From Chrysochromulina tobinii (taxonomy: Eukaryota): a stretch of DNA of 37,325 nt. Shown one piece after another: positions 3,565-23,441 of the stretch; the stretch's first letter is position 1, and the number at the start of each line of letters is the position of its first letter. Below the pieces are notes generated by a model. The model worked only from the letters and a program-made list of their open reading frames with translations. It did not search any database and was not told where the DNA came from. The stretch is taken from positions 1 through 37,325 of the forward strand of contig JWZX01003190.1 of assembly GCA_001275005.1 (NCBI GenBank), in the 5' to 3' direction. The position numbers and the translations under genes are program-made.

Positions 3565-5259
3565 ATGCTGATCTTCCGAAAGGGAACACCATGGAGGCTA
3601 ATGTTCCGGAGGGTGGGCTCGGCTATCCTCCCAGCGATGCCCGAGGGCTTATTGGCCGCCATGTGGACTCTCCTGATCGAGTTGATCGTGCCCCGCTCGT
3701 ACATGGACACGCTGCTGCAGCACCCTAATGCATACCATACGTTTGCATTCTTGGCGCTGACGTTGCTCGTGTTCCGCACCAACGTCGCGTACAATCGCTT
3801 TTGGGAGTGCTGCACCTCGGTCACCGTTATGGGAGGCATGTGGGGCGACGCGTTCACCATGGCCATCACGATGGACGAGCTCATCAACACCAACAAGCGT
3901 GAGTACGGCGAGGCGGGCGCTGCGTGGCTCGAGAAGCGGCGGCGGCACCAGATGCTCATGGCCCGCCGCTACTCACTCTGCCACGCGCTCGCACTGCAGT
4001 ACCTGCGCCGCGATGACTGCCTAAAAAACCTGGTCCCGAGCGACGGGCGCCAACCGAAAGTGCCAATGGGGGCTGGGGCGTTTGGCGGCATGGAGCAGCC
4101 GACGAGCCGTGCGGACCCCGAGTGGCAGCAGCTCGAGGTGCTCGGTGGCCTCACCGAGTCTGAGATCCGTTCGCTCGAGAGTAGCCCCGACCGCGTGGGG
4201 TACATCTTCTCGCAGATCATGCACCTGAACGCACAGCGGCGCTGCGACGGCGGCCTGGGCACGGACCCGCCAGTGCTCTCGCGCTACTGGTCGTGTCTCT
4301 CGTCCGGCATGTCGGGCATGCGGCAGGCGCGCAAGGTCGAGGACATCCCCTTCCCGTGGCCGTACACGCAGGCCGTCGCCCTCTGTACCCACTTGTTCGC
4401 CCTCACCTTCCCGCTCGTTCTCGCACACTTTGCCAACTGCGGCTCCGTTTCATGCGCCAGCCCCAACTATTGGATGGGCCCGTTCCTCGCGTTCGTCACG
4501 GTGACCTCCTTCGCGGCCCTTGACCAGGTCGCCGTCGCCCTCGAGGATCCCTTTGTCCACCCGCCCAACGACTTGCCTGCGAACGCGCTTCAGGCGGCCT
4601 TCAACAACCGCCTGAACACCATCCTCGACGCCGTTCGTCGGCCGGCGGATGCTCTCACAACGAACTCGCAACTAGTGTGTGACTTAGACCGTCTCCCCGA
4701 GGGCGACGAGAAGTACTGGGGCGAGTTCGCCGAGCTCGAGGCGACAGACGTGAAGCTTGCGACGGTCAACTTCCTTGGACAGTGGCGCAAGTACACGACG
4801 AAGCACGAGAGGCCAGCCCATACTTTTCGTTCGAAGAGTATGTCGAACATTGCCACGCCAGGGCTGGTCATGCTCTCGTCGGGCCGGGGGAAGCTCAAGA
4901 CGCGCCTCCTGGAAGTCGAGGCTGTCGGGGGTTTCAAGAAATCCTCGTCGGATCCAAACTTGACGAGGCTCGAGGACGGAATCGCCGCCCCCCCCCCAGG
5001 CGCCCCCCCCCCAGGCCGCGGACCCCTTGGCGGCAAACTGGGTAAATTGACGTCGACCTCTCTCGATTTCCTTCCCCAATTTCCGAAGGCGCAGCCCACT
5101 AGCCCAAACAGTTCTAGCACCATCGGCGACACCCTGAATATCTTTAAGCGCTCCCGGGCACTCGGCACGGATCCAACCCTGAGTGATACGGATAGCCCCA
5201 TCGGGACGCCAACGAAGGGGTCCCCTTCTGCTTCGCCCAGCGTGCCCAGACGTGCCTAG
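3565..5259 (+). CDS. Bestrophin-like (UPF0187/bestrophin family) anion channel
   Basis: LLVFRTNVAYNRFWE, PFPWPY and LEDPF...NDLP motifs; hydrophobic segments; low-complexity C-terminal tail; first ATG at 3565. Confidence 0.88.
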   Translation: MLIFRKGTPWRLMFRRVGSAILPAMPEGLLAAMWTLLIELIVPRSYMDTLLQHPNAYHTFAFLALTLLVFRTNVAYNRFWECCTSVTVMGGMWGDAFTMAITMDELINTNKREYGEAGAAWLEKRRRHQMLMARRYSLCHALALQYLRRDDCLKNLVPSDGRQPKVPMGAGAFGGMEQPTSRADPEWQQLEVLGGLTESEIRSLESSPDRVGYIFSQIMHLNAQRRCDGGLGTDPPVLSRYWSCLSSGMSGMRQARKVEDIPFPWPYTQAVALCTHLFALTFPLVLAHFANCGSVSCASPNYWMGPFLAFVTVTSFAALDQVAVALEDPFVHPPNDLPANALQAAFNNRLNTILDAVRRPADALTTNSQLVCDLDRLPEGDEKYWGEFAELEATDVKLATVNFLGQWRKYTTKHERPAHTFRSKSMSNIATPGLVMLSSGRGKLKTRLLEVEAVGGFKKSSSDPNLTRLEDGIAAPPPGAPPPGRGPLGGKLGKLTSTSLDFLPQFPKAQPTSPNSSSTIGDTLNIFKRSRALGTDPTLSDTDSPIGTPTKGSPSASPSVPRRA

Positions 5260-10837: not shown

Positions 10838-13800
10838 ATGGTGCCGCTGAGCCGCACTTCGCTTCGCCTCATAGGCCTCATCGTGCTCGGAGTCGTGTGC
10901 CATGTGCTCCTGCGCCACCACGCGGCTGAGCTCGCCAAGAGCCGGCGACTACCGCCGAAGCAGCAGCAGGCGAAGCAGGAGCTCGCCCAGGCAGCATCGC
11001 ACGTGCCCAGTACCAGTACCACAGCTGTCGGCAGCGAGGCCTGTCGCACGGGAGCGCCGTTGAGTGTGCTCCTCATCCACGAGCACCACCTCAAGCCGAT
11101 CGGCTCCGACGTTCGGCTGCTCGGGGTCGTCGCGCAGGTGCGACGGGTGCCACGGAGTGCTTGCGCATGCTGCTAAGTGCATGCTGATTACATGCTGATG
11201 ATTTCCTGCTGATTGCATGCTGATGGGTGCCTGCCGCAGCTGCGCGGCCTAGGCCACACTGTCTCGCTGCTTTTCCGTGGCAAGACACCCACTGAGCAGC
11301 GCTCGCCGCCGACGCACGAGCTCGCCGCGCTCCTTGGCGCGGCGCGGAGCAGCGAGACGGAGCTCTCGCCTACAGAGGCCCCGCCGCACGTGCCGTCGAT
11401 CTACGAGTACTCCGAGCTCGATTCGCTCGCGACGCTGGCGCGGCAGGGGTGGTTTGACGTGGTGCTGTGCCCGCTCTGGTTTTGGCGCGACCCGATGGCC
11501 TCGGCCGCCGAGCTTCTGCTCCCGACTCTCGCGCTCCACGCGCCCGAGGGCCGACGGCCCTTCATCGCTGTCCTGTCGGACGACGCACACTCGTATAAGG
11601 CCTCGATGATGGCGGAGTGGGAAACTTCGGTGGAGCGCAAGGCATTTCATCAGGGCAAGGCGCACTCCCTGCCACCCCGCCAGCGCGCCGTGTACGAGCT
11701 CGCCGACGCCGTCGTCCACATCTCTGCGGCTGATTCCGCACTCGAGCGCAGTGCGTTCAACGCGTCGTGTCGCCACTGGCACGTGCTCAAGATGTCGCCG
11801 CGCGGCGTGCGGCTAATGAATACGTCGAGCTCGCGCCAGCTCGCTCAGCGGCGCATGCTCGAACAGGGGCCACAGCCGATACCGCAGGGGCAGCAAGGGC
11901 AGCAAGGGCAGGAGCAGGAGCAGGAGCAGCAGCAGCAGCAGAAGGGCACGGGGCAGCGCAGGCTGCTTCAGCTCAACGAGGGCGAGGAGGCGCCACAGGC
12001 GGAGGCACAGCAGTCTCAGGGCGAGCAGCAGCCGCCGTTACAAGGCTCGGAGGCACAGGAAGAGGTGGGGCGCGATGGGGGACTCCCGGCTGATCCTGCT
12101 GATGAGGCGAATGAGGCGAATGAGGCGAATGAGGCGAATGAGGGGCGCGATGGGGGACTCCCTGCTGACGAGGTGCAAGAGGCTTACACTCAGAGCGATG
12201 AGGCGGCGCAAGGCGATGCTGAGGCTAAGAGCAACGAGGCAGCGCAGGGCGGTCAGGAATCCTCTTTTGAGGAGGTCGAGCAAGCCGACAAGGCGCAAGG
12301 CAAGGAGGCATCACGAGGACAGGCGTCACAACGCGAGAAGCAGCAGCAGCAGAAGGAGGAGGAGGTGGAGGAGGTGGAGGAGGTAGAGGAGGAGGCAGAG
12401 GAAGAGGTGGTTGTGGATCAGGAACCTCCACAAGCGCAGTCACAGCAGGAGGATGCAACCCCTGAGCTGCAGGAGGGGGAGACGGCGGTGCCGGCGGCAC
12501 TGGAGGCGCGGGAGGCGGCGGCGATGGAGCAGACGGCGGCAAAGGAGCAGACGGCGGCAAAGGAAGAGATAGAGGCGAAGGGGGAGACGGTGATGAAGGA
12601 GGCGCCGGAGAAGGTGCCGGAGGAGGCGCCGAAGGAGGCGCCGGAGGAGGCGCCGAAGGAGGCGCCGGAGGAGGCGCCGGAGGAGGCGCCGGAGCTTGCG
12701 CAGGGCGAGCAGCACCCCTCAGACGAAGATGAAGATCATCATCAGCAGCAGGCGCAGGAGGGGGAGGGCCGGGCGGCAGAGGCGGAGGCGCCCGAGCCGC
12801 CATCGGAGCCACCATCGGAGCCGGAGCAGCAGCAGCCTGTACAGCAGCCCGTACAGCAGCCCGTACAGCAGCCTGCGCAGCATTCGGCTGACGATGATGA
12901 GGGCATCATTCACACCAAGAACACCGATGAGTCGTCCTCCACGCCGTCACCCTCGTTGCCGCCCCCGAGCGCATCGCGGACTGCAGAGATGGCACCCTCC
13001 CAAATTAGGAAGGATGATGTGGTCCAAATTAGGAATGCAGCGGCAACGGCGTCCGCAGCGGCAGCAGCCAGCAAGGGCGCGCTGGCCGGCGCCGTCGCGA
13101 GCGGCCTCGAGGGCGCGCTGACCGGCGCCGTCGCGAGCGGCCTCGTCTTCCCGCCCTCGAGGATCGGCTTCATGGGCAACGGCATCACGCCAACGAACCA
13201 TCTTTCTATCGAGTGGTTCCTGAGCGAGGTGTGGCCCGCGCTCAGGACGGCACTACCGAGCGTGCGGCTGCGGCTCGTCGGCTATGCGCCCGATGACCGC
13301 CCGAAGAGGCAGCAGGGCAAGCCGTGCGACGCGCTCAGCTCGCCCGTACGCTGCGGCTGGGCGTGGCGCACCTCGCTGGCGGGGCACGAGGCGGCAGGTG
13401 GCGTGGATGAGCTCGGCTTCATCTCAGATGCGGAGATGGTCGAAGAGCTCCTTAGCTGGCGTGCGATGATCGTGCCGATCCTACGCTCGACCGGCGTGAA
13501 CACCAAGCTGCTGCCTGGCCTCCAGCTTGGCGTCCCCATCGTCCTCACGAGCGTCTCGGCGTCGCCACTCGGCATCCCGACTGACGACTCCGTCGCGCTG
13601 CTCGCCGACGACGCGCCCACGTTCGTGCGCCAGCTGCGTCGGTTGCACGAGCACCCTTTGGAGGCACTCCGATTGGCCGCCTCGGCGCGCCGCCATTGGG
13701 AGCGGCTACTGGATGAGGATCGATCCGCGTCTGATCTCGCGCCGCTGCTGCAGCTGGGGTGCGACGTGCTGCAGCACGTCCCTGAAAGCGAGCGCCCCTT

Positions 13801-15199
13801 GCCGCTACCCAAGGTGCCCAGCACGGCGCGCTCCGCCGCCGGCTTGCGCTCAGACTTTGCCGCCGCCGCGGCCTTGCCGCCTCCGGTGGCCGCTCGCTGT
13901 TGGGGCGCCATGGTGCCGCCTGCGGTCGTCGTCATGATGCATGGCAGCGCGGCGTCGGAGAGCTCGGTGATGCACGCGCACGCACTGTGGGAAGCTCTCT
14001 GCCTCAAATGCAGCCTGCAGTGCGTGCACGGACGCGGCGGCCGCCGCCCGCTACCAAATTGGGACGTCCTGGTGGAGCACGAAGCGACACACTCTGCCGC
14101 CGAGCTCACTGACGCCCTCATGGCCGCCTCAAAGCGCATCTTCCCGCGACCCATGTATCTGGTCCACAACCCAGCCGCGCAGTTCCCCGCCGTGTTCCAA
14201 TACAGCGCACGCGGCGCGACGCTCGCGGCGGTGGCGCGGGGCGAGCGGCTGCGCGCACGGCTGCCCGCGGCCCTGGCCGCCGCGGGCTTCAAGCAGCACA
14301 TGTGGGCGAGCCGACCGCTCGAGCCGCTAGCGAATGGCACTCGAGGCGCCGCGCTCGACGTGGCGTGGCGTGACACATTGACCGCGCTAGGGCTCGCGCG
14401 CTCGTCACTGCCGCCGCTCCTCGCAGTCGCCGAGCGGCTGCGGCTTCGTCTTTCGGCCGACCGAGCTGCCGAGCCTCTGTGGATCGGCTGCTACCGGGAC
14501 AGGGGGCCATCGCGTGACGTGGCCAACGGTCCACGCAACAGCGGGCACACGACGCTCAGCTGTGCAGCCGCCTGCATCGACGCCCCCGTCTTCGCGATGG
14601 CCAACGGCGGACAGTGCTTCTGCGGCACGTCCCTCGCACGTGCGACGAACCACTCGAAGCGCGTGCCGCCCTCGCAATGCGGCGCCATCTGCGAGGCCGA
14701 GGAGGGGAAACTGCCGCCGCGCTACTGCGGCGGCGGCGCGCGCAACGCTGTGTACGTGAGCCGCGGCACTCTCTTGCCCGTGGAGCGCTCGCTCCTGATG
14801 GCGTCGCCGCCGCCGCCCTCCATCCAGGGGCACGCCGCCCACGGGGAGCTCGAGGCCGCAAAGGGTGCTGCCCCGGGCAGGGCCACGCGTGCTGCCGGCG
14901 CCGGCGGTGGCGGTGGCGGCGCCAGCGCTGGCGGTGGTGGCGGCGACGGCGGCGAGGCCAAAGTGAAGGACAGCAAGGGCAACAGCGGAACCAAGGACAA
15001 GAGTGGCAGCAAGGACAAGAGCGTAACCAAGGCGAAAGGCAGTAGCAAGGCGAAGAGCGGCGGCAAGGTCGCGAAGAAGAAAACGTCGGTCAAGAAAGTC
15101 AGCAGCCACGAGAGTAAGAAGAAGCACAAAGCGGCGGCCAAGCCCAAGGCGACGGCCTTTAAGTCCAAGGCAAGGCGCGGCCATGAGAAGAAGAACTAG
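10838..15199 (+). CDS. Type II membrane GT4-like glycosyltransferase with acidic insert, WSC domain and Lys-rich tail; 2 exons (10838-11137, 11240-15199)
   Basis: N-terminal TM; GSDVRLLGVVAQ|LRGLGHTV across the intron; IGFMGNG..TNHLSIEWFLSEVWP..VRLRLVG and IVPILRSTGVNTKLLPGLQLGVPIVLT (GT-B C-domain); WIGCYRD...CAAAC...GGQCFCG...CGG..RNAVY (WSC). Confidence 0.8.
11138..11239 (+). other. Repeat-filled intron (102 nt)
   Basis: GTGCGA...CCGCAG; repeated (CA)TGCTGAT and TGATTGC; junctions CGCAG|GTGCG and CGCAG|CTGCG; an in-frame stop lies within it. Confidence 0.85.
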
Positions 15200-18068: not shown

Positions 18069-18509
18069 ATGGCTGCTGAGAGGCTCCCTCTATTCTCGGT
18101 CGCGGTGAAGGACACGAAGCAAATCGACCATTTGGTCTTCAAGGCCGCTGATCTGGACACGAAGACGACGTCGTGGAAGGTGGAGATTCACGATCAGAGC
18201 TGGCCGCACACCAAGACGCTCACTTACGAGGTCAAAAAGCTGACGAAATCATCGGACTGGGACACGCTCACGGTCAGGATACGGCCGCAGAAAGAGGGGA
18301 GGATGCTGGCGTGGCGGGCCACGTACGTTGCAGGCTCCGTGCAGGGCACGTGGAGTCCCGACTGGACTCCGGTTGTGCCGGCGGACGAGCGGCAGAGGGA
18401 CCTCGACACTGGCAACAAGAAGTGGGAGAAGATCTTTGCGCCGTACGTTCCGTATGTTCCAGCCCCACCTGGGCGTCCGTACGTTCCAGTCATGGCTCAT
18501 GCTTGCTGA
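18069..18509 (+). CDS. Hypothetical 146-aa protein (beta-rich, Trp-rich, PYVP repeats at the C-terminus)
   Basis: ATG in GCCATGG context, GC3-biased codons, natural amino-acid composition; no family recognised. Confidence 0.6.
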   Translation: MAAERLPLFSVAVKDTKQIDHLVFKAADLDTKTTSWKVEIHDQSWPHTKTLTYEVKKLTKSSDWDTLTVRIRPQKEGRMLAWRATYVAGSVQGTWSPDWTPVVPADERQRDLDTGNKKWEKIFAPYVPYVPAPPGRPYVPVMAHAC

Positions 18510-19409
18510 TTGAAAACGAAGAATGGCATTCTAATGGGCCACGTCGATCTCGGATCCTAGAGGTGGAGCCGGAGCGTGCGACTGTGTCCAAGTACCAAAG
18601 CTATTCCACACACATGGCACACATGGTCGAGGCAATCTTCAGCGCTCGAAACATATTAATACCGTGTCCGTGAGGCGACCAGGCGTGTCCGGCTGAGCGT
18701 GCAAGGCCCGCGGACCGCGGACGTCGATAACGAGCCCGGCCGGTGGGGGTTGTGCGACCGGACGTATTCGAGTTATGCGTGTGCCCAACCACAGATTCCA
18801 AGAAAATAAAACATGTATTAACAGCCCATTCACAGGAACCCTTCGAAGCGACGCGCGCGTCCCGCCTGCTACTGCACTCGTCGCTCTTCGTGCTCAACGT
18901 GCGTCGGTGCGACCGCTGCACGCGCACACCGCACCACCTTCGCACACGGAATACATCGAGTCCGCTCCCTGGTAGGTGCTTTCTTCCACACGGAGCCCGC
19001 GGGCACTTGTGCATCTCAGGGAGCACACATGCCCTTGCCCCTACGCCTCCCTTCGTCTCTCTCACGACTGTGGGTTTTTTCGCGTGCCTTTCCGCAGTCG
19101 CGCGCCGACAAAAGTCCGCCTCCCTCCTCTCCGCCCCCGCGCGCTTTGCCGCCACGTGACTGCCCAATCCTGAGTCCCCGAGCTGGGCTGCCTCTCTCGA
19201 GGGCATGCGACTCTCCGTTCGCGATGAGCTTCGGAACTACACTCCGCACGCGATTCCCCTCATCCTCGCGGCACGCTGTTGGTGGTTGCATGTCTGCATC
19301 GAGACCCCTGAAGCGTCCTTCAGCTTGCAGCCTCGTGTGGTCCCATATCTCCATGCTGCCGCGAATACACACGCTGCCTAAGCCTCTCTTCTTCTCTCTT
19401 GTTCGCAGG

Positions 19410-20863
19410 ATGATCGCGATGCTCATCAACTGTGTAGCGGATAAGACCAAGGCCCACAGCGTTGCCATCATCTCGGTCGTCTTTTCGCCCGATGGCACGA
19501 AGATCGTGTCGGGATCGATTGATGGGACGATCAAAGTCTGGGATTTTGGTGCGCCGCGGAGCCTCGAATCGCCCCTCCTTGGCGAAGACTGACGCCATTT
19601 GGCTTGCCTGGCAGACAAACTGGAGCTGTTGAGCGAGAAGACAAACGCCCACAGCGACTGCATCAACTCGGTGGCGTTTTCCCCTGACGGCACCAAGATT
19701 GTGTCTGGATCGTGGGACAAGACGATCAAAGTCTGGGAATCTGGTGCGCCGGAGCCTCGAATCGCCCCTCCTTGGCCAAAACTGACACCTGCTGGCTTGT
19801 CTGGCAGGCAAGCTGGAGTTTCTGAGCGAGAAGACCAACGCCCACAGCAGCTACGTCATGTCGGTGGCGTTTTCCCCGGACAGGACCAAGATCGTGTCTG
19901 GATCGGCTGACGGGACGATCAAAGTCTGGGATTCGGGTGCGCTGCAGCCCTCATATCACCCCTCCTTTTGGCTAAAACTGACGCTTGATGGCTTGCCTGG
20001 CAGACAAGCTGGAGATGCTGAGCGAGAAGACGAACGCCCACAGCCACTGGGTCATGTCGGTGGCGTTTTCCCCTGACGGGACCAAGATTGTGTCGGGATC
20101 GCGCGACGGGACGATCAAAGTCTGGGATTCAGGTGCGCCGCGAGCTCAAAATCGCCCCTCTCCTTGGCCAAAACTGATGCATGTTGGATTGTCTGGCAGC
20201 CAAACTGGAGCAGCTGAGCGAGAAGACGAATGCCCACAGCCAACACCTCACGTCGGTCGCGTTTTCCCCACACGGGACCAAGATTGTCTCGGGATCGGGC
20301 GACAAGACTATCAAAGTCTGGGATTTGGGTGCGCTGGAGCCCTCGAAATCGCCCCTCCTTGGCCAAAACTGACGCCTGCTGGCTTGTCTGGCAGGCAAAC
20401 TGGAGCTGCTGAGCGAGAAGACGAACGCCCACAGAAACTACATCGAGTCGGTCGCGTTTTCTCCGGACGGGACCAAGATTGTCTCGGGAGCGCACGACAA
20501 GACGATCAAAGTATGGGATTCAGGTGCGCCGCGAGCTCAAAATCGCCCCTCCTCGGCCAAATCTGACGCCTGCTGGCTTGTCTGGCAGACAAACTGGAGC
20601 TGCTGAGCGAGAAGACGGACGCCCACCACCACTACGTCAGGTCGGTGGCGTTTTCCCCGGACGGGACCAAGATTGTGTCTGGATCGGACGACGGGACGAT
20701 CAAAGTCTGGGATATGGTCAAGTGGTCTCGCAAAGATCATTTGATGTTCAATGATACCACCCAGCGATTTGTCTTGCTGCTGCTGTGGATGAAAAAATGC
20801 AGTATGAAGTTTCCGGATGATGTGCTAGATCTACTCATCGAAGCTTGCTTGCAAAGCAGGTGA
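19410..20863 (+). CDS. Seven-repeat WD40 protein, one repeat per exon (19410-19548, 19615-19743, 19808-19936, 20004-20132, 20200-20328, 20395-20523, 20589-20863), 352 aa
   Basis: Repeat consensus [12 protein letters not shown]....[22 protein letters not shown]; six phase-1 GT-AG introns of 64-67 nt; spliced length 1059 nt is in frame; a pyrimidine tract plus CAG at 19408 suggests a further upstream exon. Confidence 0.9.
19450..20713 (+). repeat. Tandem exon+intron array, ~193-196-nt period
   Basis: Both the exons and the introns (GTGCGC...AATCGCCCCTCCTTGGCCAAAACTGACG...GGCTTGTCTGGCAG) are repeated with high similarity. Confidence 0.92.
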
Positions 20864-21246
20864 GAGGTGTGGGGTGACGGCGACTGTGGATGTGTCGCAT
20901 CCAATCTGATCCACACGGCTTCGCCGTGTCTAGAGAGTCAATGAGCAGTCGAATGATATTGACTCGATATTGTTGACTTATATCGTATGGAAACCAACGC
21001 CGCTCCCGCTGCCCGGCCGGTGCCGGTATCTCGGACTCGGTGAGTCGGTGTGTCGCGGTTACCACCGTTACCTATGTTGAGAAAGGGTCAGTTGAATCGA
21101 CACACAAGGTACCGACCAGCCACTACCAAACGAAACACAGGACAGACGGGCGCTGTCACCGCGGTCGCGTCGCTCGGTAACTACACCTAACATTCACAGC
21201 TACAACTATAAATGTACGCCGTCAAAGGTGTGAACCCAATTTCCAA

Positions 21247-23441
21247 ATGGAGACGAGTGCGACGTCGCCCTCGAACGCGGTCGCGATGATGACGCAGCAG
21301 GCGGAGGAGCAGTGGCGTCGCGCCGGTGGCCATGTGCTCCCGCCATTCGCACCGATTGCGTGCGCGAGCCGTCGAGCATTTGCGCTCCTGCAGGCGGCTG
21401 CAGCGCTCGACCAGGAGTGCGCACGGCTTCGACAGGAGCTGTGCGAGCTCAACACTGGTGAGGACGCAACGCGCCGCGTGCGCGCGTGCGTCTCGCCAAC
21501 GTCAAAAGCCGGCGCGGCCGCACAGCAGGAGATGGACGATGAGTCCGACGGCAGCGACCTGCAGGGCTCGCTCGTCGCCGCCAATGTGCGGCCCGGGAAG
21601 CCCTTGGTGCTGCTGTCCGCGCGGGACGGGCTCGAGCACCGAGCGCCCGACGGCTCGCTGCGACTGATCGCCGCCGACATGCTCTCCGAGCGAGAGCGCG
21701 AGCAGCTGCTCGCTGGCGGCTTGGTCGCCATGGCCGGCGCCTTCAGCCGCTGCGGCCAGACTACCCTCGGTATCTCCCCGGCTCTCGCGGCGCGTGTGCT
21801 CGCAACGACGGCGTCGGCGTCGGCCGCCTCGGGCGCAGACGGCACCGCAGGCGCTGCGGCCGCGCTCTCCTCCACCGCTATGGCGGGCGCGGACCTTTCA
21901 GGGACGGTGCCGTTGCTCTACCGCGTCGTCGAGCGCGCGCGCCGTCGGGTGGCCGCTGCGTTCGGTGCCGACCTGGCGTCGCTTCGCGTGAGCGACGCCA
22001 CGTTCACACGGCTGCAGCCGGTCAGCACGCCCGGTGCAGGCGGCGCACGCACACGCAAGCCAGGCAGCGCGGCGCGCTCCAGCAGCACCAGCAGCGCGGG
22101 CCACCATGGCAACGATGGCAGCGCTGGCGAGGACGGTGGAGGCGCTTGCACCTGCAGCGAGCACGACGACGTCGTCGACGAGGACGAGCTGCTGGCATGA
22201 GGCCACCGCCGCCTGGTGCTCTCGACGTGGGTCTGCTGCGGCACGATCAGTTCTGCTACTGGCGCGCACACATCGATCAAGTGAGCGCGTCTGAGGACCT
22301 CTGAGGACCTCTGATGACCTCTGATGACCTCTGATGACCTCTGATGACCTCTGATGGCGCGCACACATCGATCAAGTGAGCGCGTCTGAGGACCTCTGAT
22401 GACCTCGGATGACCTCTGATGACCGCTGATGACCGCTGATGACCGCTGGTGACCGCTGATGATCAGGTGAGCGTCGCGGAGTATGAGTACTCGGCACTCC
22501 TCTACCTCACGCGCTATGGTTCGGCCGCGCCCACGGAAGAGGGCGGCACTGGCGCCACTGCCGGCGGCGCCGCTGCCGGCGGCGCCGCTGCCGCCCCAGT
22601 CGGCGATTTTGAGGGCGGGCGGCTCGTCTTCCACGACTTGGACGCCGATCGGGTGGTGCTGCCCGAGCCTGGCGTGCTGGTCGCCTTCGAGTCTGGCGCG
22701 CCCAACCTGCATGCTGTCCAGCGCGTGACGCGCGGCAGCCGCTTCGCGCTCACGATGTGGTTCACAAGCAAGGCAGAGATGCCCGGCGCGGCGGTGGACC
22801 CGACGCACGCGGCGATGCAGCAGTGGGCAGCGGCCCTGCCAGATCCTCGTGTCGATGCCCCGTCCCCCATCACGCCACCGCTCACGGCGGCGCCATCAGA
22901 GGTCATCAGCGGTCATCAGCGGACATCAGTGCTCGCGACAGCGCCGCCGCCGCCTTTGCCGCCGCTGCCAGCGCCACCCTCCTCCAGGCTGCCCTCACGC
23001 GAAGAATCGCTCGTCTCGGCGGCCATCTGTTCTCTACCCGCAAACGATCCGCTCAATCGAGCGCTCGTCATCGCCAACGCCGCGGGCGGCCATCAGCTGG
23101 GTGCCATCCTCGAAAGAGCATTAGGCATCCCTGCTGCTCTAGCATTTGCGACGCCTCGCCCGTCCCCAGGCCAGCCACCGCCGCCGCTGCGGCTGGTGGA
23201 CGGCGTCGGCGGTGCATTGCTTGCGAGCCGCGTCGGCGCGCTCGACGCGCTTCAGACGACGCTGCTGCGGGCTCGGGCCGAGAGGGCAGCTCAGCAGCGC
23301 GCGAAACGGCCCACGCCCACGCAGGCCGTCCCCGGCCTGCAGTCACCGCCTCCAGACCCGCTGCCAGCCCCGCCGGTGGGCGCAGATGCGCCTGCGCCGG
23401 CCAAAAGCGGCGACGATGCCTTCTCCGTGTTCGACTTTTAG
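21247..23441 (+). CDS. 2OG-Fe(II) oxygenase, OGFOD3/prolyl-hydroxylase-like; one intron (22281-22466) and an apparent frame disruption near 22188
   Basis: DATFTRL; HDQFCYWRAHIDQ|VSVAEYEYSALLYL (HxD motif); DFEGGRLVF; NLHAVQRVTRGSRFALTMWF (distal His and Arg). Confidence 0.78.
22281..22466 (+). other. Repeat-filled intron (186 nt)
   Basis: GTGAGC...GATCAG; decamer array CTGA(T/G)GACC(T/G); internal copy of the exon end plus donor (22355-22399 = 22260-22304); junctions GATCAA|GTGAGCG and GATCAG|GTGAGCG. Confidence 0.85.

What the first reader, a model, noticed from the sequence alone, without database searches (positions are those of the whole stretch)
19410..20863. Modular WD40 receptor-like gene: one exon per blade, conserved introns, hypervariable surface codons
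Seen: seven WD repeats, each in its own exon. The five internal exons are exactly 129 nt and all introns are phase 1, so any exon can be skipped, duplicated or swapped without a frameshift. The introns are themselves near-identical. The scaffold is almost invariant, but two patches differ in every repeat. After the His they read SVAII / SDCIN / SSYVM / SHWVM / SQHLT / RNYIE / HHYVR, and after SG they read SIDG / SWDK / SADG / SRDG / SGDK / AHDK / SDDG. Established: the equivalent top-face propeller positions are under diversifying selection in Podospora HNWD (het-d/het-e) non-self receptors, and one-repeat-per-exon shuffling is described for Ectocarpus LRR-ROCO and NB-ARC-TPR genes. Inference: this is a candidate algal immune/recognition system that diversifies by exon-cassette recombination.
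Basis: partly seen in the sequence, partly recalled or inferred. Interest (0 to 1): 0.85.

Follow-up and report, generated by a model that had tools for sequence, protein, structure and literature searches.

The report
Algal patch-swapping WD40 recognition gene family
This gene, likely from a freshwater alga, is one of dozens of scattered copies that encode a seven-repeat binding protein with one repeat per exon; five codons per repeat change far faster than silent DNA and the same repeats are shared with immune-type NTPase genes, so it is likely part of a fast-evolving system for recognising intruders, though no target is known.

Summary
Observation confirmed: seven WD40 repeats, five 129-nt internal exons, six phase-1 GT-AG introns (76-94% alike, not near-identical), a 352-aa ORF with a 49-aa helical tail of no known family. 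The host is likely a Chrysochromulina haptophyte. The gene is one of about 30 dispersed arrays in assemblies that appear to be one strain. In 237 related exons five codons (four match the selected HNWD codons) show dN/dS about 4-6.5 against 0.15-0.17 in the scaffold, with 0 stops against 31 expected. Flank-matched alleles differ mostly there. Repeats form one pool across loci, shared with NACHT-STAND genes and a U-box-dynamin gene. Exon skipping is unshown. The gene has no NACHT, so it is not an HNWD member; it works like one's sensor domain. An immune role is inferred. The scan noted similar WD40 patterns on other protist DNA. New variant of a known kind.

The parts
18879..19409 (+). 5' untranslated region shared by the family, with two likely introns (about 18976-19097 and about 19360-19408)
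   Evidence: Homology with many paralogs begins near 18879; frame-breaking indels among 15 aligned copies mark it non-coding, and the GT/AG sites are mostly conserved; RNA contigs start near 18874 and four end at 19361. The second donor is unresolved.
19410..19548 (+). Coding exon 1 (139 nt): start codon and WD40 repeat 1
19549..19614 (+). Cassette intron 1 (66 nt, phase 1)
   Evidence: spliced-junction loose end at 19614 in RNA contigs
19615..19743 (+). Exon 2, WD40 repeat 2 (129 nt); hypervariable codons start at 19656, 19659, 19665, 19713, 19719
19744..19807 (+). Cassette intron 2 (64 nt)
19808..19936 (+). Exon 3, WD40 repeat 3 (129 nt)
19937..20003 (+). Cassette intron 3 (67 nt)
   Evidence: junction loose end at 20001
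20004..20132 (+). Exon 4, WD40 repeat 4 (129 nt); 3 nt from an exon in another array (L081)
20133..20199 (+). Cassette intron 4 (67 nt)
   Evidence: junction loose end behind 20130
20200..20328 (+). Exon 5, WD40 repeat 5 (129 nt)
20329..20394 (+). Cassette intron 5 (66 nt)
   Evidence: junction loose end at 20394
20395..20523 (+). Exon 6, WD40 repeat 6 (129 nt)
20524..20588 (+). Cassette intron 6 (65 nt)
20589..20713 (+). Last exon, WD40 repeat 7
   Evidence: PF00400, E 1.5e-12
20714..20863 (+). 49-aa C-terminal three-helix tail and stop codon; no known family
   Evidence: omega 0.49 over 32 tails
20864..20960 (+). 3' untranslated end; homology to paralogs ends raggedly between about 20853 and 20977

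Best explanation
This is an intact member of a large, dispersed, likely Chrysochromulina family of stand-alone WD40 genes whose five predicted top-face codons per repeat are under diversifying selection, and it likely acts as an intracellular binder of fast-changing foreign proteins. Shown: (1) each gene is a tandem array of a 195-nt intron+exon unit; (2) units form one pool across loci and gene classes (exons within a locus differ by 20.2 nt, between loci by 20.8); (3) new codons at five sites are favoured while scaffold, reading frame and usually the count of seven are preserved; (4) the same cassette sits in NACHT-STAND genes and in a U-box-dynamin-ARM gene. Inferred: the pool is stirred by ordinary homologous conversion and unequal crossover in the germ line, mostly in tracts shorter than an exon that move one patch, sometimes a whole intron+exon unit, with crossovers favoured in the invariant TIKVWD-donor stretch; the near-equal intron sequences are a product and a facilitator of this, not a dedicated cassette switch. 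Inferred: the seven repeats close one propeller whose top face binds a virus or parasite protein, and the conserved helical tail docks the complex on a common host partner (a degradation or signalling machine), in place of the NACHT switch that the sister genes carry.
For: Selection: omega 4.1-6.5 at five codons against 0.15-0.17 in the scaffold, 237 exons without the window's own; tree-free per-site ratios 2.05-7.0 at these five, at most 1.22 at the other 37; 0 stops in 1185 codons against 31 expected; silent diversity at these codons not clearly raised; the four codons named in advance by the HNWD paper give omega 4.0 and 6.7, 2dL 55 and 343. Four flank-matched allele comparisons: 20 of 80 hypervariable codons changed, all amino-acid changing, against 9 changing and 16 silent of 553 scaffold codons and 10 of 803 intron bases. 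Position: spacing equals HET-E codons 7, 9, 25, 27 on the propeller top (PMC1805685) and WDSP hotspots R1-2, R1, D-1 (PMC4383882); the model of relative P0018 puts them in the d-a loop, the start of strand a and the b-c turn. Exchange: r2 falls from 0.052 to 0.006 within an exon (distance trend p=0.001, 537 of 543 site pairs show four gametes); an exon identical over its 42 compared codons at position 5 of L016 and position 3 of L063; a patch-only swap between alleles L027 and L069. Shared cassette. Expression of the family.
Against: No ligand, phenotype or infection response is known; the immune role rests on analogy and on gene context in sister loci. The tail matches no family by sequence or fold, so the adaptor step is a guess. 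Tree-based omega and the p-values are inflated by recombination, and allele differences within one tract are not independent events. Environmental contigs are short-read assemblies and can be chimeric across repeats. RNA contigs cannot be assigned to this locus. The full seven-repeat protein was not folded; only a three-repeat natural relative was (pTM 0.53). Cytosolic location was judged from the sequence, not with a predictor.
Confidence: 0.62

Rival explanations
1. One reading: diversity comes mainly from whole exon cassettes being skipped, duplicated or swapped at the conserved introns, possibly by alternative splicing or somatic rearrangement.
For: Symmetric phase-1 exons with stop-free junction codons; whole-unit transfer seen (L016/L063; six between-locus exon pairs within 4 nt); about a third of pairs sharing patch 1 share the unit from the preceding intron to patch 2; 3 to 10 cassette exons in NACHT genes and one inverted orphan exon near L015; precedent in brown algae (PMC3341825, PMC11378527).
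Against: Linkage is lost inside exons; excess identity drops at codons 36-42, before the intron; 18 of 24 complete stand-alone genes have seven repeats; alleles often keep order and differ by codons; the window array is the same in a second assembly; skipping joints come from paralogs at 88% likeness and prove nothing.
Confidence: 0.15
2. The stand-alone genes work in self/non-self or mate recognition between algal cells or strains, or in an internal genetic conflict, rather than against parasites.
For: [quoted passage not shown]
Against: About 30 loci with a shared pool that includes NACHT and U-box-dynamin genes fits broad surveillance better than a few compatibility loci; no signal peptide or membrane anchor is evident in the sequence.
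Confidence: 0.12
3. The stand-alone genes are mainly a reservoir of repeat variants, or decoys, for the NACHT-WD40 receptors and need not bind anything useful themselves.
For: Exons are as close between classes (20.6 nt) as within the stand-alone class (20.3 nt).
Against: Intact ORFs through the tail in 22 of 24 automatic gene models; seven repeats mostly kept; tail under purifying selection (omega 0.49); tail-region RNA contigs present; stand-alone genes outnumber NACHT genes in the sample.
Confidence: 0.07
4. A self-spreading repeat or mobile gene whose variable codons are merely unconstrained or sit in mutation hotspots.
For: Copies lie in unrelated flanks with a fairly sharp 5' edge.
Against: Amino-acid change exceeds silent and intron change several-fold, silent change at the same codons is not clearly raised, stops are absent; no shared termini or target duplications were seen and the 3' edge is ragged.
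Confidence: 0.04

Closest known systems
Podospora anserina HNWD/NWD receptors (HET-D, HET-E, HET-R); PMC1805685, PMC2873952, PMC4986451 (passages read)
   Same: Pool of WD40 repeats exchanged within and between loci; selection on the same four codons; short conversion and unequal crossover as mechanisms.
   Different: The window gene has no HET or NACHT domain and ends in an unclassified helical tail; each repeat carries its own intron; a fifth codon (14) is also selected; repeat number is mostly fixed at seven; host is likely a unicellular haptophyte.
[quoted passage not shown]
   Same: One repeat per symmetric exon, diversifying selection on binding positions, exchange within and between genes in an alga.
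   Different: WD40 rather than LRR or TPR; short homogenised introns; no ROC-COR or NB-ARC in this gene; closed propeller limits repeat number; alternative splicing not shown; exchange largely below exon size.
[quoted passage not shown]
   Same: Clonal arrays of equal-length exons with one intron phase, spread over many loci and fused to other domains in a protist.
   Different: LRR, phase 2, thousands of genes, retrotransposon association; no such element was seen here.
Highly repetitive bacterial WD40 proteins (PDB 2ymu, 5yzv)
   Same: Best solved-structure matches to the repeat of relative P0018 (E 6e-105 for 2ymu).
   Different: Intronless bacterial proteins; no tail.
Chrysochromulina tobinii KOO20820.1 (P0011)
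   Same: Same first repeat type, repeat scaffold and tail (88% in the tail).
   Different: Annotated as UDP-N-acetylglucosamine diphosphorylase with three repeats; likely a gene model fused to its neighbour, so the family appears unrecognised in that annotation (inference).

Membership tests
WD40 beta-propeller proteins | WD40 repeats with conserved His, Ser, Asp, Trp scaffold | tested here: met
   PF00400 on repeats 1 and 7; H12 241, S30 244, D34 233, W40 244 of 244 exons.
WD40 beta-propeller proteins | Closed seven-bladed propeller | tested here: inconclusive
   Seven repeats present; only a three-repeat relative was folded and matched WD40 propellers.
HNWD/NWD fungal NLRs | Central NACHT domain | tested here: not met
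   The 352-aa ORF is repeats plus tail; upstream region non-coding. Met in sister loci L017 and L039.
HNWD/NWD fungal NLRs | N-terminal HET or other effector domain | tested here: not met
   The ORF starts inside repeat 1.
HNWD/NWD fungal NLRs | Diversifying selection at repeat codons 7, 9, 25, 27 | tested here: met
   Equivalent codons 15, 17, 33, 35: omega 4.0-6.7, tree-free ratios 7.0, 3.6, 3.7, 2.05; positions from PMC1805685.
HNWD/NWD fungal NLRs | Concerted evolution of repeats across loci | tested here: met
   Within-locus 20.2 nt against between-locus 20.8 nt, 105 exons of 23 loci.
HNWD/NWD fungal NLRs | High internal conservation (85% identity over 100 aa, PMC4986451) | tested here: inconclusive
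   Window internal repeats: 89% at scaffold, 12% at the five variable codons, about 80% overall, just under the published line.
HNWD/NWD fungal NLRs | Triggers cell death on non-self recognition | not testable with these tools
   Needs experiment.
Ectocarpus-type exon-shuffled receptors | One repeat per equal-length, same-phase exon | tested here: met
   exon lengths in 24 gene models.
Ectocarpus-type exon-shuffled receptors | ROC-COR or NB-ARC signalling domain with LRR or TPR repeats | tested here: not met
Ectocarpus-type exon-shuffled receptors | Non-coding or inverted repeat exons beside the array | tested here: inconclusive
   None in the window on either strand; one inverted exon downstream of the array in L015.
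Ectocarpus-type exon-shuffled receptors | Alternative splicing of repeat exons | not testable with these tools
   Only collapsed contigs of RNA runs were available; joints mix paralogs.
WD40 substrate receptors of cullin ligases (F-box, SOCS-box) | F-box or SOCS/BC-box adaptor motif | tested here: inconclusive
   No such Pfam or PDB sequence match for the tail; three-helix model gave only generic helical matches, best Z 5.6, rmsd 2.2, 48 aligned. The likeness of FPDDVLDLL to an F-box start is recalled, from no call.
Helitron-carried gene | Shared 3' hairpin and CTRR terminus marking the end of homology | tested here: not met
   The hairpin before CTAG near 20930 is perfect only in this copy, and homology with close paralogs runs past it. 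The Helitron end rule is recalled.

The most novel reading that the evidence does not exclude
A unicellular alga keeps an antibody-like repertoire of free cytosolic propeller binders, actively diversified by targeted patch-level conversion from a genome-wide pool shared with its NLR-like and dynamin-like defence genes, and couples each binder through a new class of adaptor tail to destruction of giant-virus or virophage proteins.
Probability: 0.15. Interest if true: 0.92.

Novelty: new variant of a known kind. Interest (0 to 1): 0.68.

Why it matters
How bloom-forming microalgae recognise viruses and parasites is largely open. This family gives a concrete, countable candidate repertoire in a culturable haptophyte genus for which a giant virus and virophages are reported (PMC6459981, search listing only): about 30 arrays, five defined variable codons per repeat, and one sensor cassette wired to three different outputs. 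It extends the fungal HNWD selection pattern, codon for codon, to a distant eukaryote lineage and to receptors without an NTPase. It also shows that one-repeat-per-exon structure does not by itself mean exon-level shuffling, which bears on the brown-algal hypothesis. The tail is a conserved domain with no family.

Tried and rejected
No whole genome is held for the window, so family size is a lower bound from a truncated scan. Viral origin: 0 matches of the junction pattern and no tail relative among 90 pattern matches in viral contigs. Tail identity: no Pfam hit for the window tail, one weak DUF7703 hit (E 0.06) in 1 of 10 aligned tails; 0 PDB sequence hits; no Foldseek hit at E 0.001 in PDB or viral models; VIA only generic; among 18 hits in the 50% library, the 13 read were WD40-tail relatives or tail fragments (10) or repetitive chance hits (3); the protein atlas gave no answer. 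A search for a natural full-length seven-repeat protein returned, among the 120 listed, long multi-repeat WD40 proteins, the named ones mostly fungal and bacterial, so the whole protein was not folded. Helitron or other transposon ends: rejected. An upstream coding extension (open frame 18822-19592): rejected because paralogs carry frame-breaking indels there. Mutation hotspot at the variable codons: not supported. Skipping joints and the three-repeat protein P0018 were not taken as evidence of exon skipping, since both can arise from paralogs or collapsed assembly. M7/M8 site models were not available; partitioned GY models, tree-free counts and allele counts were used instead. Left out of the pooled allele count: L031/L051 (arrays differ throughout, 89% overall), L014 against L062 and L073 (repeats replaced, partial), L003/L029 and L027/L013 (one repeat each, replaced), window/L122 (only 35 flanking bases). 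A strict laying of DNA and RNA runs on this locus was not obtained, so expression of this exact copy is open. Paper searches listed no description of this family in haptophytes; the library lacks most subscription journals and no supplements were read.

Full report
Observation. The gene structure is as described. Six GT-AG introns of 64-67 nt separate a 139-nt first coding exon, five 129-nt exons and a 275-nt last exon; the spliced frame gives 352 aa, seven WD40 repeats and a 49-aa tail. Junction codons are GAC, GGC or GCC. The array has period 196 and score 1567, and a second assembly (L032) carries the same seven repeats with 100% identical flanks. Introns are 76-94% alike, exons 80-88%, so 'near-identical' overstates it. 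RNA contigs from 4 runs of 3 studies carry loose ends that read exon end into exon start at 19614, 20001, 20130 and 20394; a few low-depth contigs span introns unspliced; cover starts near 18874 and ends near 20960. These contigs are mostly paralogs, so they show splicing of the family, not of this copy.

Organism and family. The tail finds 19 of 21 candidates, among them Chrysochromulina tobinii KOO20820.1 at 88%; the host is therefore likely a Chrysochromulina, by this one named relative. A tail profile finds 535 proteins at E up to 1, and the 120 listed all carry WD40; relatives at about 47-60% show the same repeat-plus-tail end, so the family is likely older than one species. Sixty-six loci from assemblies labelled mixed culture or with neighbouring record names fall into 34 distinct arrays, some fragmentary; identical arrays recur across these assemblies, so about 30 per strain is my estimate and the one-strain grouping is inferred. 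Flanks are unrelated beyond about 18879 and 20853-20977, with nested longer matches in a subfamily, which fits repeated whole-gene duplication without transposon ends.

Three host architectures. Class A, like the window gene, runs from the start codon through the repeats to the helical tail. Of 24 complete models 18 have seven repeats, 3 five, 1 six and 2 eight (my reading, counting introns the script missed; L035 and L101 are the same array); 22 of 24 read through to the tail under automatic splicing. Class B arrays lie inside long genes with NPHP3_N/NACHT and APAF1_C domains (L017, L039; weaker in L057) and hold 3 to 10 cassette exons. In L007 seven cassette exons interrupt a U-box-dynamin-ARM gene. 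The window gene itself has no NTPase; its upstream region is non-coding.

Selection. From 382 clean internal exons, 244 unique, five codons stand out: 14, 15, 17, 33, 35 (2.2-3.8 bits; all others at most 1.5). Removing the window's 5 exons and 2 misaligned ones leaves 237. The five were chosen after looking, so I also tested the four fixed in advance by PMC1805685, whose selected codons 7, 9, 25, 27 have the same spacing around conserved positions: omega 4.0 and 6.7, 2dL 55 and 343 against omega 1. Recombination inflates these. Tree-free pair counts give 3.06, 7.02, 3.56, 3.66 and 2.05 times the scaffold silent rate; codons 1 and 4 reach 1.2 and 1.1, the rest stay below 0.7; two-fold silent diversity at the five is 0.008-0.08 against a scaffold mean of 0.12, four-fold 0.001-0.475 against 0.23; stops are 0 of 1185 against 31 expected. 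In four flank-matched allele comparisons 20 of 80 variable codons differ, none silently, against 9 amino-acid and 16 silent changes in 553 scaffold codons and 10 of 803 intron bases (Fisher p 4e-6, overstated because changes come in tracts). Codons 15, 17 and 33 have the spacing of the top-face hotspots R1-2, R1 and D-1 of PMC4383882, and the model of P0018 places the five in the d-a loop, the start of strand a and the b-c turn.

How repeats move. Exons differ by 20.2 nt within a locus, 20.8 between loci, 20.6 between classes A and B: one pool. Whole units do move: the fifth repeat of L016 and third of L063 are identical in all 42 compared codons with one mismatch in the next intron, and six between-locus pairs lie within 4 nt. 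But the exon is not the usual unit. Mean r2 within an exon falls from 0.052 at 3-10 nt to 0.009 at 60-100 nt and 0.006 at 100-130 nt, the background level, and is no lower across an intron at like distance. Pairs sharing patch 1 share patch 2 in 37 of 166 cases (null 3.5%). Among 136 pairs with an identical patch-1 DNA string, excess identity is 0.26-0.41 from the preceding intron to patch 2 and drops to 0.11 at codons 36-42 and 0.02-0.06 in the next intron: about a third share the unit, with the border in the invariant exon end, and the rest share little more than the patch. Alleles L027 and L069 show it directly: in repeat 1 one carries the patch of repeat 2 and the other that of repeat 3, silent base included. 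Short conversion and unequal crossover are what PMC2873952 reports for HNWD. Recurrent mutation adds to the decay, and environmental contigs may be chimeric.

The tail. Predicted helices 6-11, 14-28 and 35-47, pLDDT 78; omega 0.49 over 32 copies; invariant W, S, R, V, L, W, P, D, C. No sequence or fold assignment. An adaptor role is inferred from its constancy beside a variable binding face.

Mechanism and verdict. Shown: structure, family, selection, shared pool, exchange below and at unit size, three architectures. Inferred: closed propeller, cytosolic location, foreign ligand, adaptor tail. It works like the sensor domain of HNWD receptors and is built like the brown-algal and Tetrahymena exon arrays, but is a member of neither. 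Papers seen: PMC3341825 abstract and sections 15 and 17; passages of PMC1805685, PMC4986451, PMC2873952, PMC4383882, PMC6564038, PMC13449251, PMC11378527; PMC6459981 as a search listing only; no supplements. Searches listed no account of this family. Earlier notes of this scan report a stand-alone WD40 family with a helical tail and a protist NLR with five variable codons on other DNA (unchecked); a sequence look-up around this locus found nothing. New variant of a known kind, interest 0.68.

Noticed in passing
L017:4300-4800: The NACHT-WD40 gene carries an insert with a weak RelA/SpoT match (PF04607, E 0.074, below the curated cut-off), a possible nucleotide-signal effector inside the STAND module.
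   Followed up: partly
L007:2473-6400: U-box + dynamin GTPase + ARM gene with seven cassette exons inserted between ARM-like repeats; an unusual candidate defence protein.
   Followed up: partly
L015:7300-7900: Inverted cassette exon and introns next to a second single exon with the class B tail, downstream of a nine-exon array; recalls the inverted orphan exons of Ectocarpus.
   Followed up: partly
L039:1038-5618: NACHT gene with a stop at 4395-4397 and a duplicated APAF1_C stretch with an extra cassette intron; internal duplication or broken copy.
   Followed up: no
P0011 (KOO20820.1): Public C. tobinii gene model joins a family member to a UDP-GlcNAc diphosphorylase, likely by reading the stop region as a splice donor.
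   Followed up: partly
window 21075-21176: Short element found in RNA contigs of all four runs with unrelated sequence before it; likely a dispersed repeat.
   Followed up: no
window 18069-18509: Upstream 146-aa gene with no Pfam match whose cluster has 45 members; possibly another variable or multi-copy family.
   Followed up: no
window 11213-15199: 1328-aa open frame with glycosyltransferase-1 and WSC domains and long low-complexity linkers.
   Followed up: no
window 22260-22462: 10-bp tandem repeat inside a likely intron that splits a 2OG-Fe(II) oxygenase gene; similar repeats occur in many fetched loci.
   Followed up: no
window 19353-19409: An ATG at 19353, present in most aligned paralogs, would add two in-frame codons if the last 5' intron uses a GC donor at 19358; start site unresolved.
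   Followed up: partly
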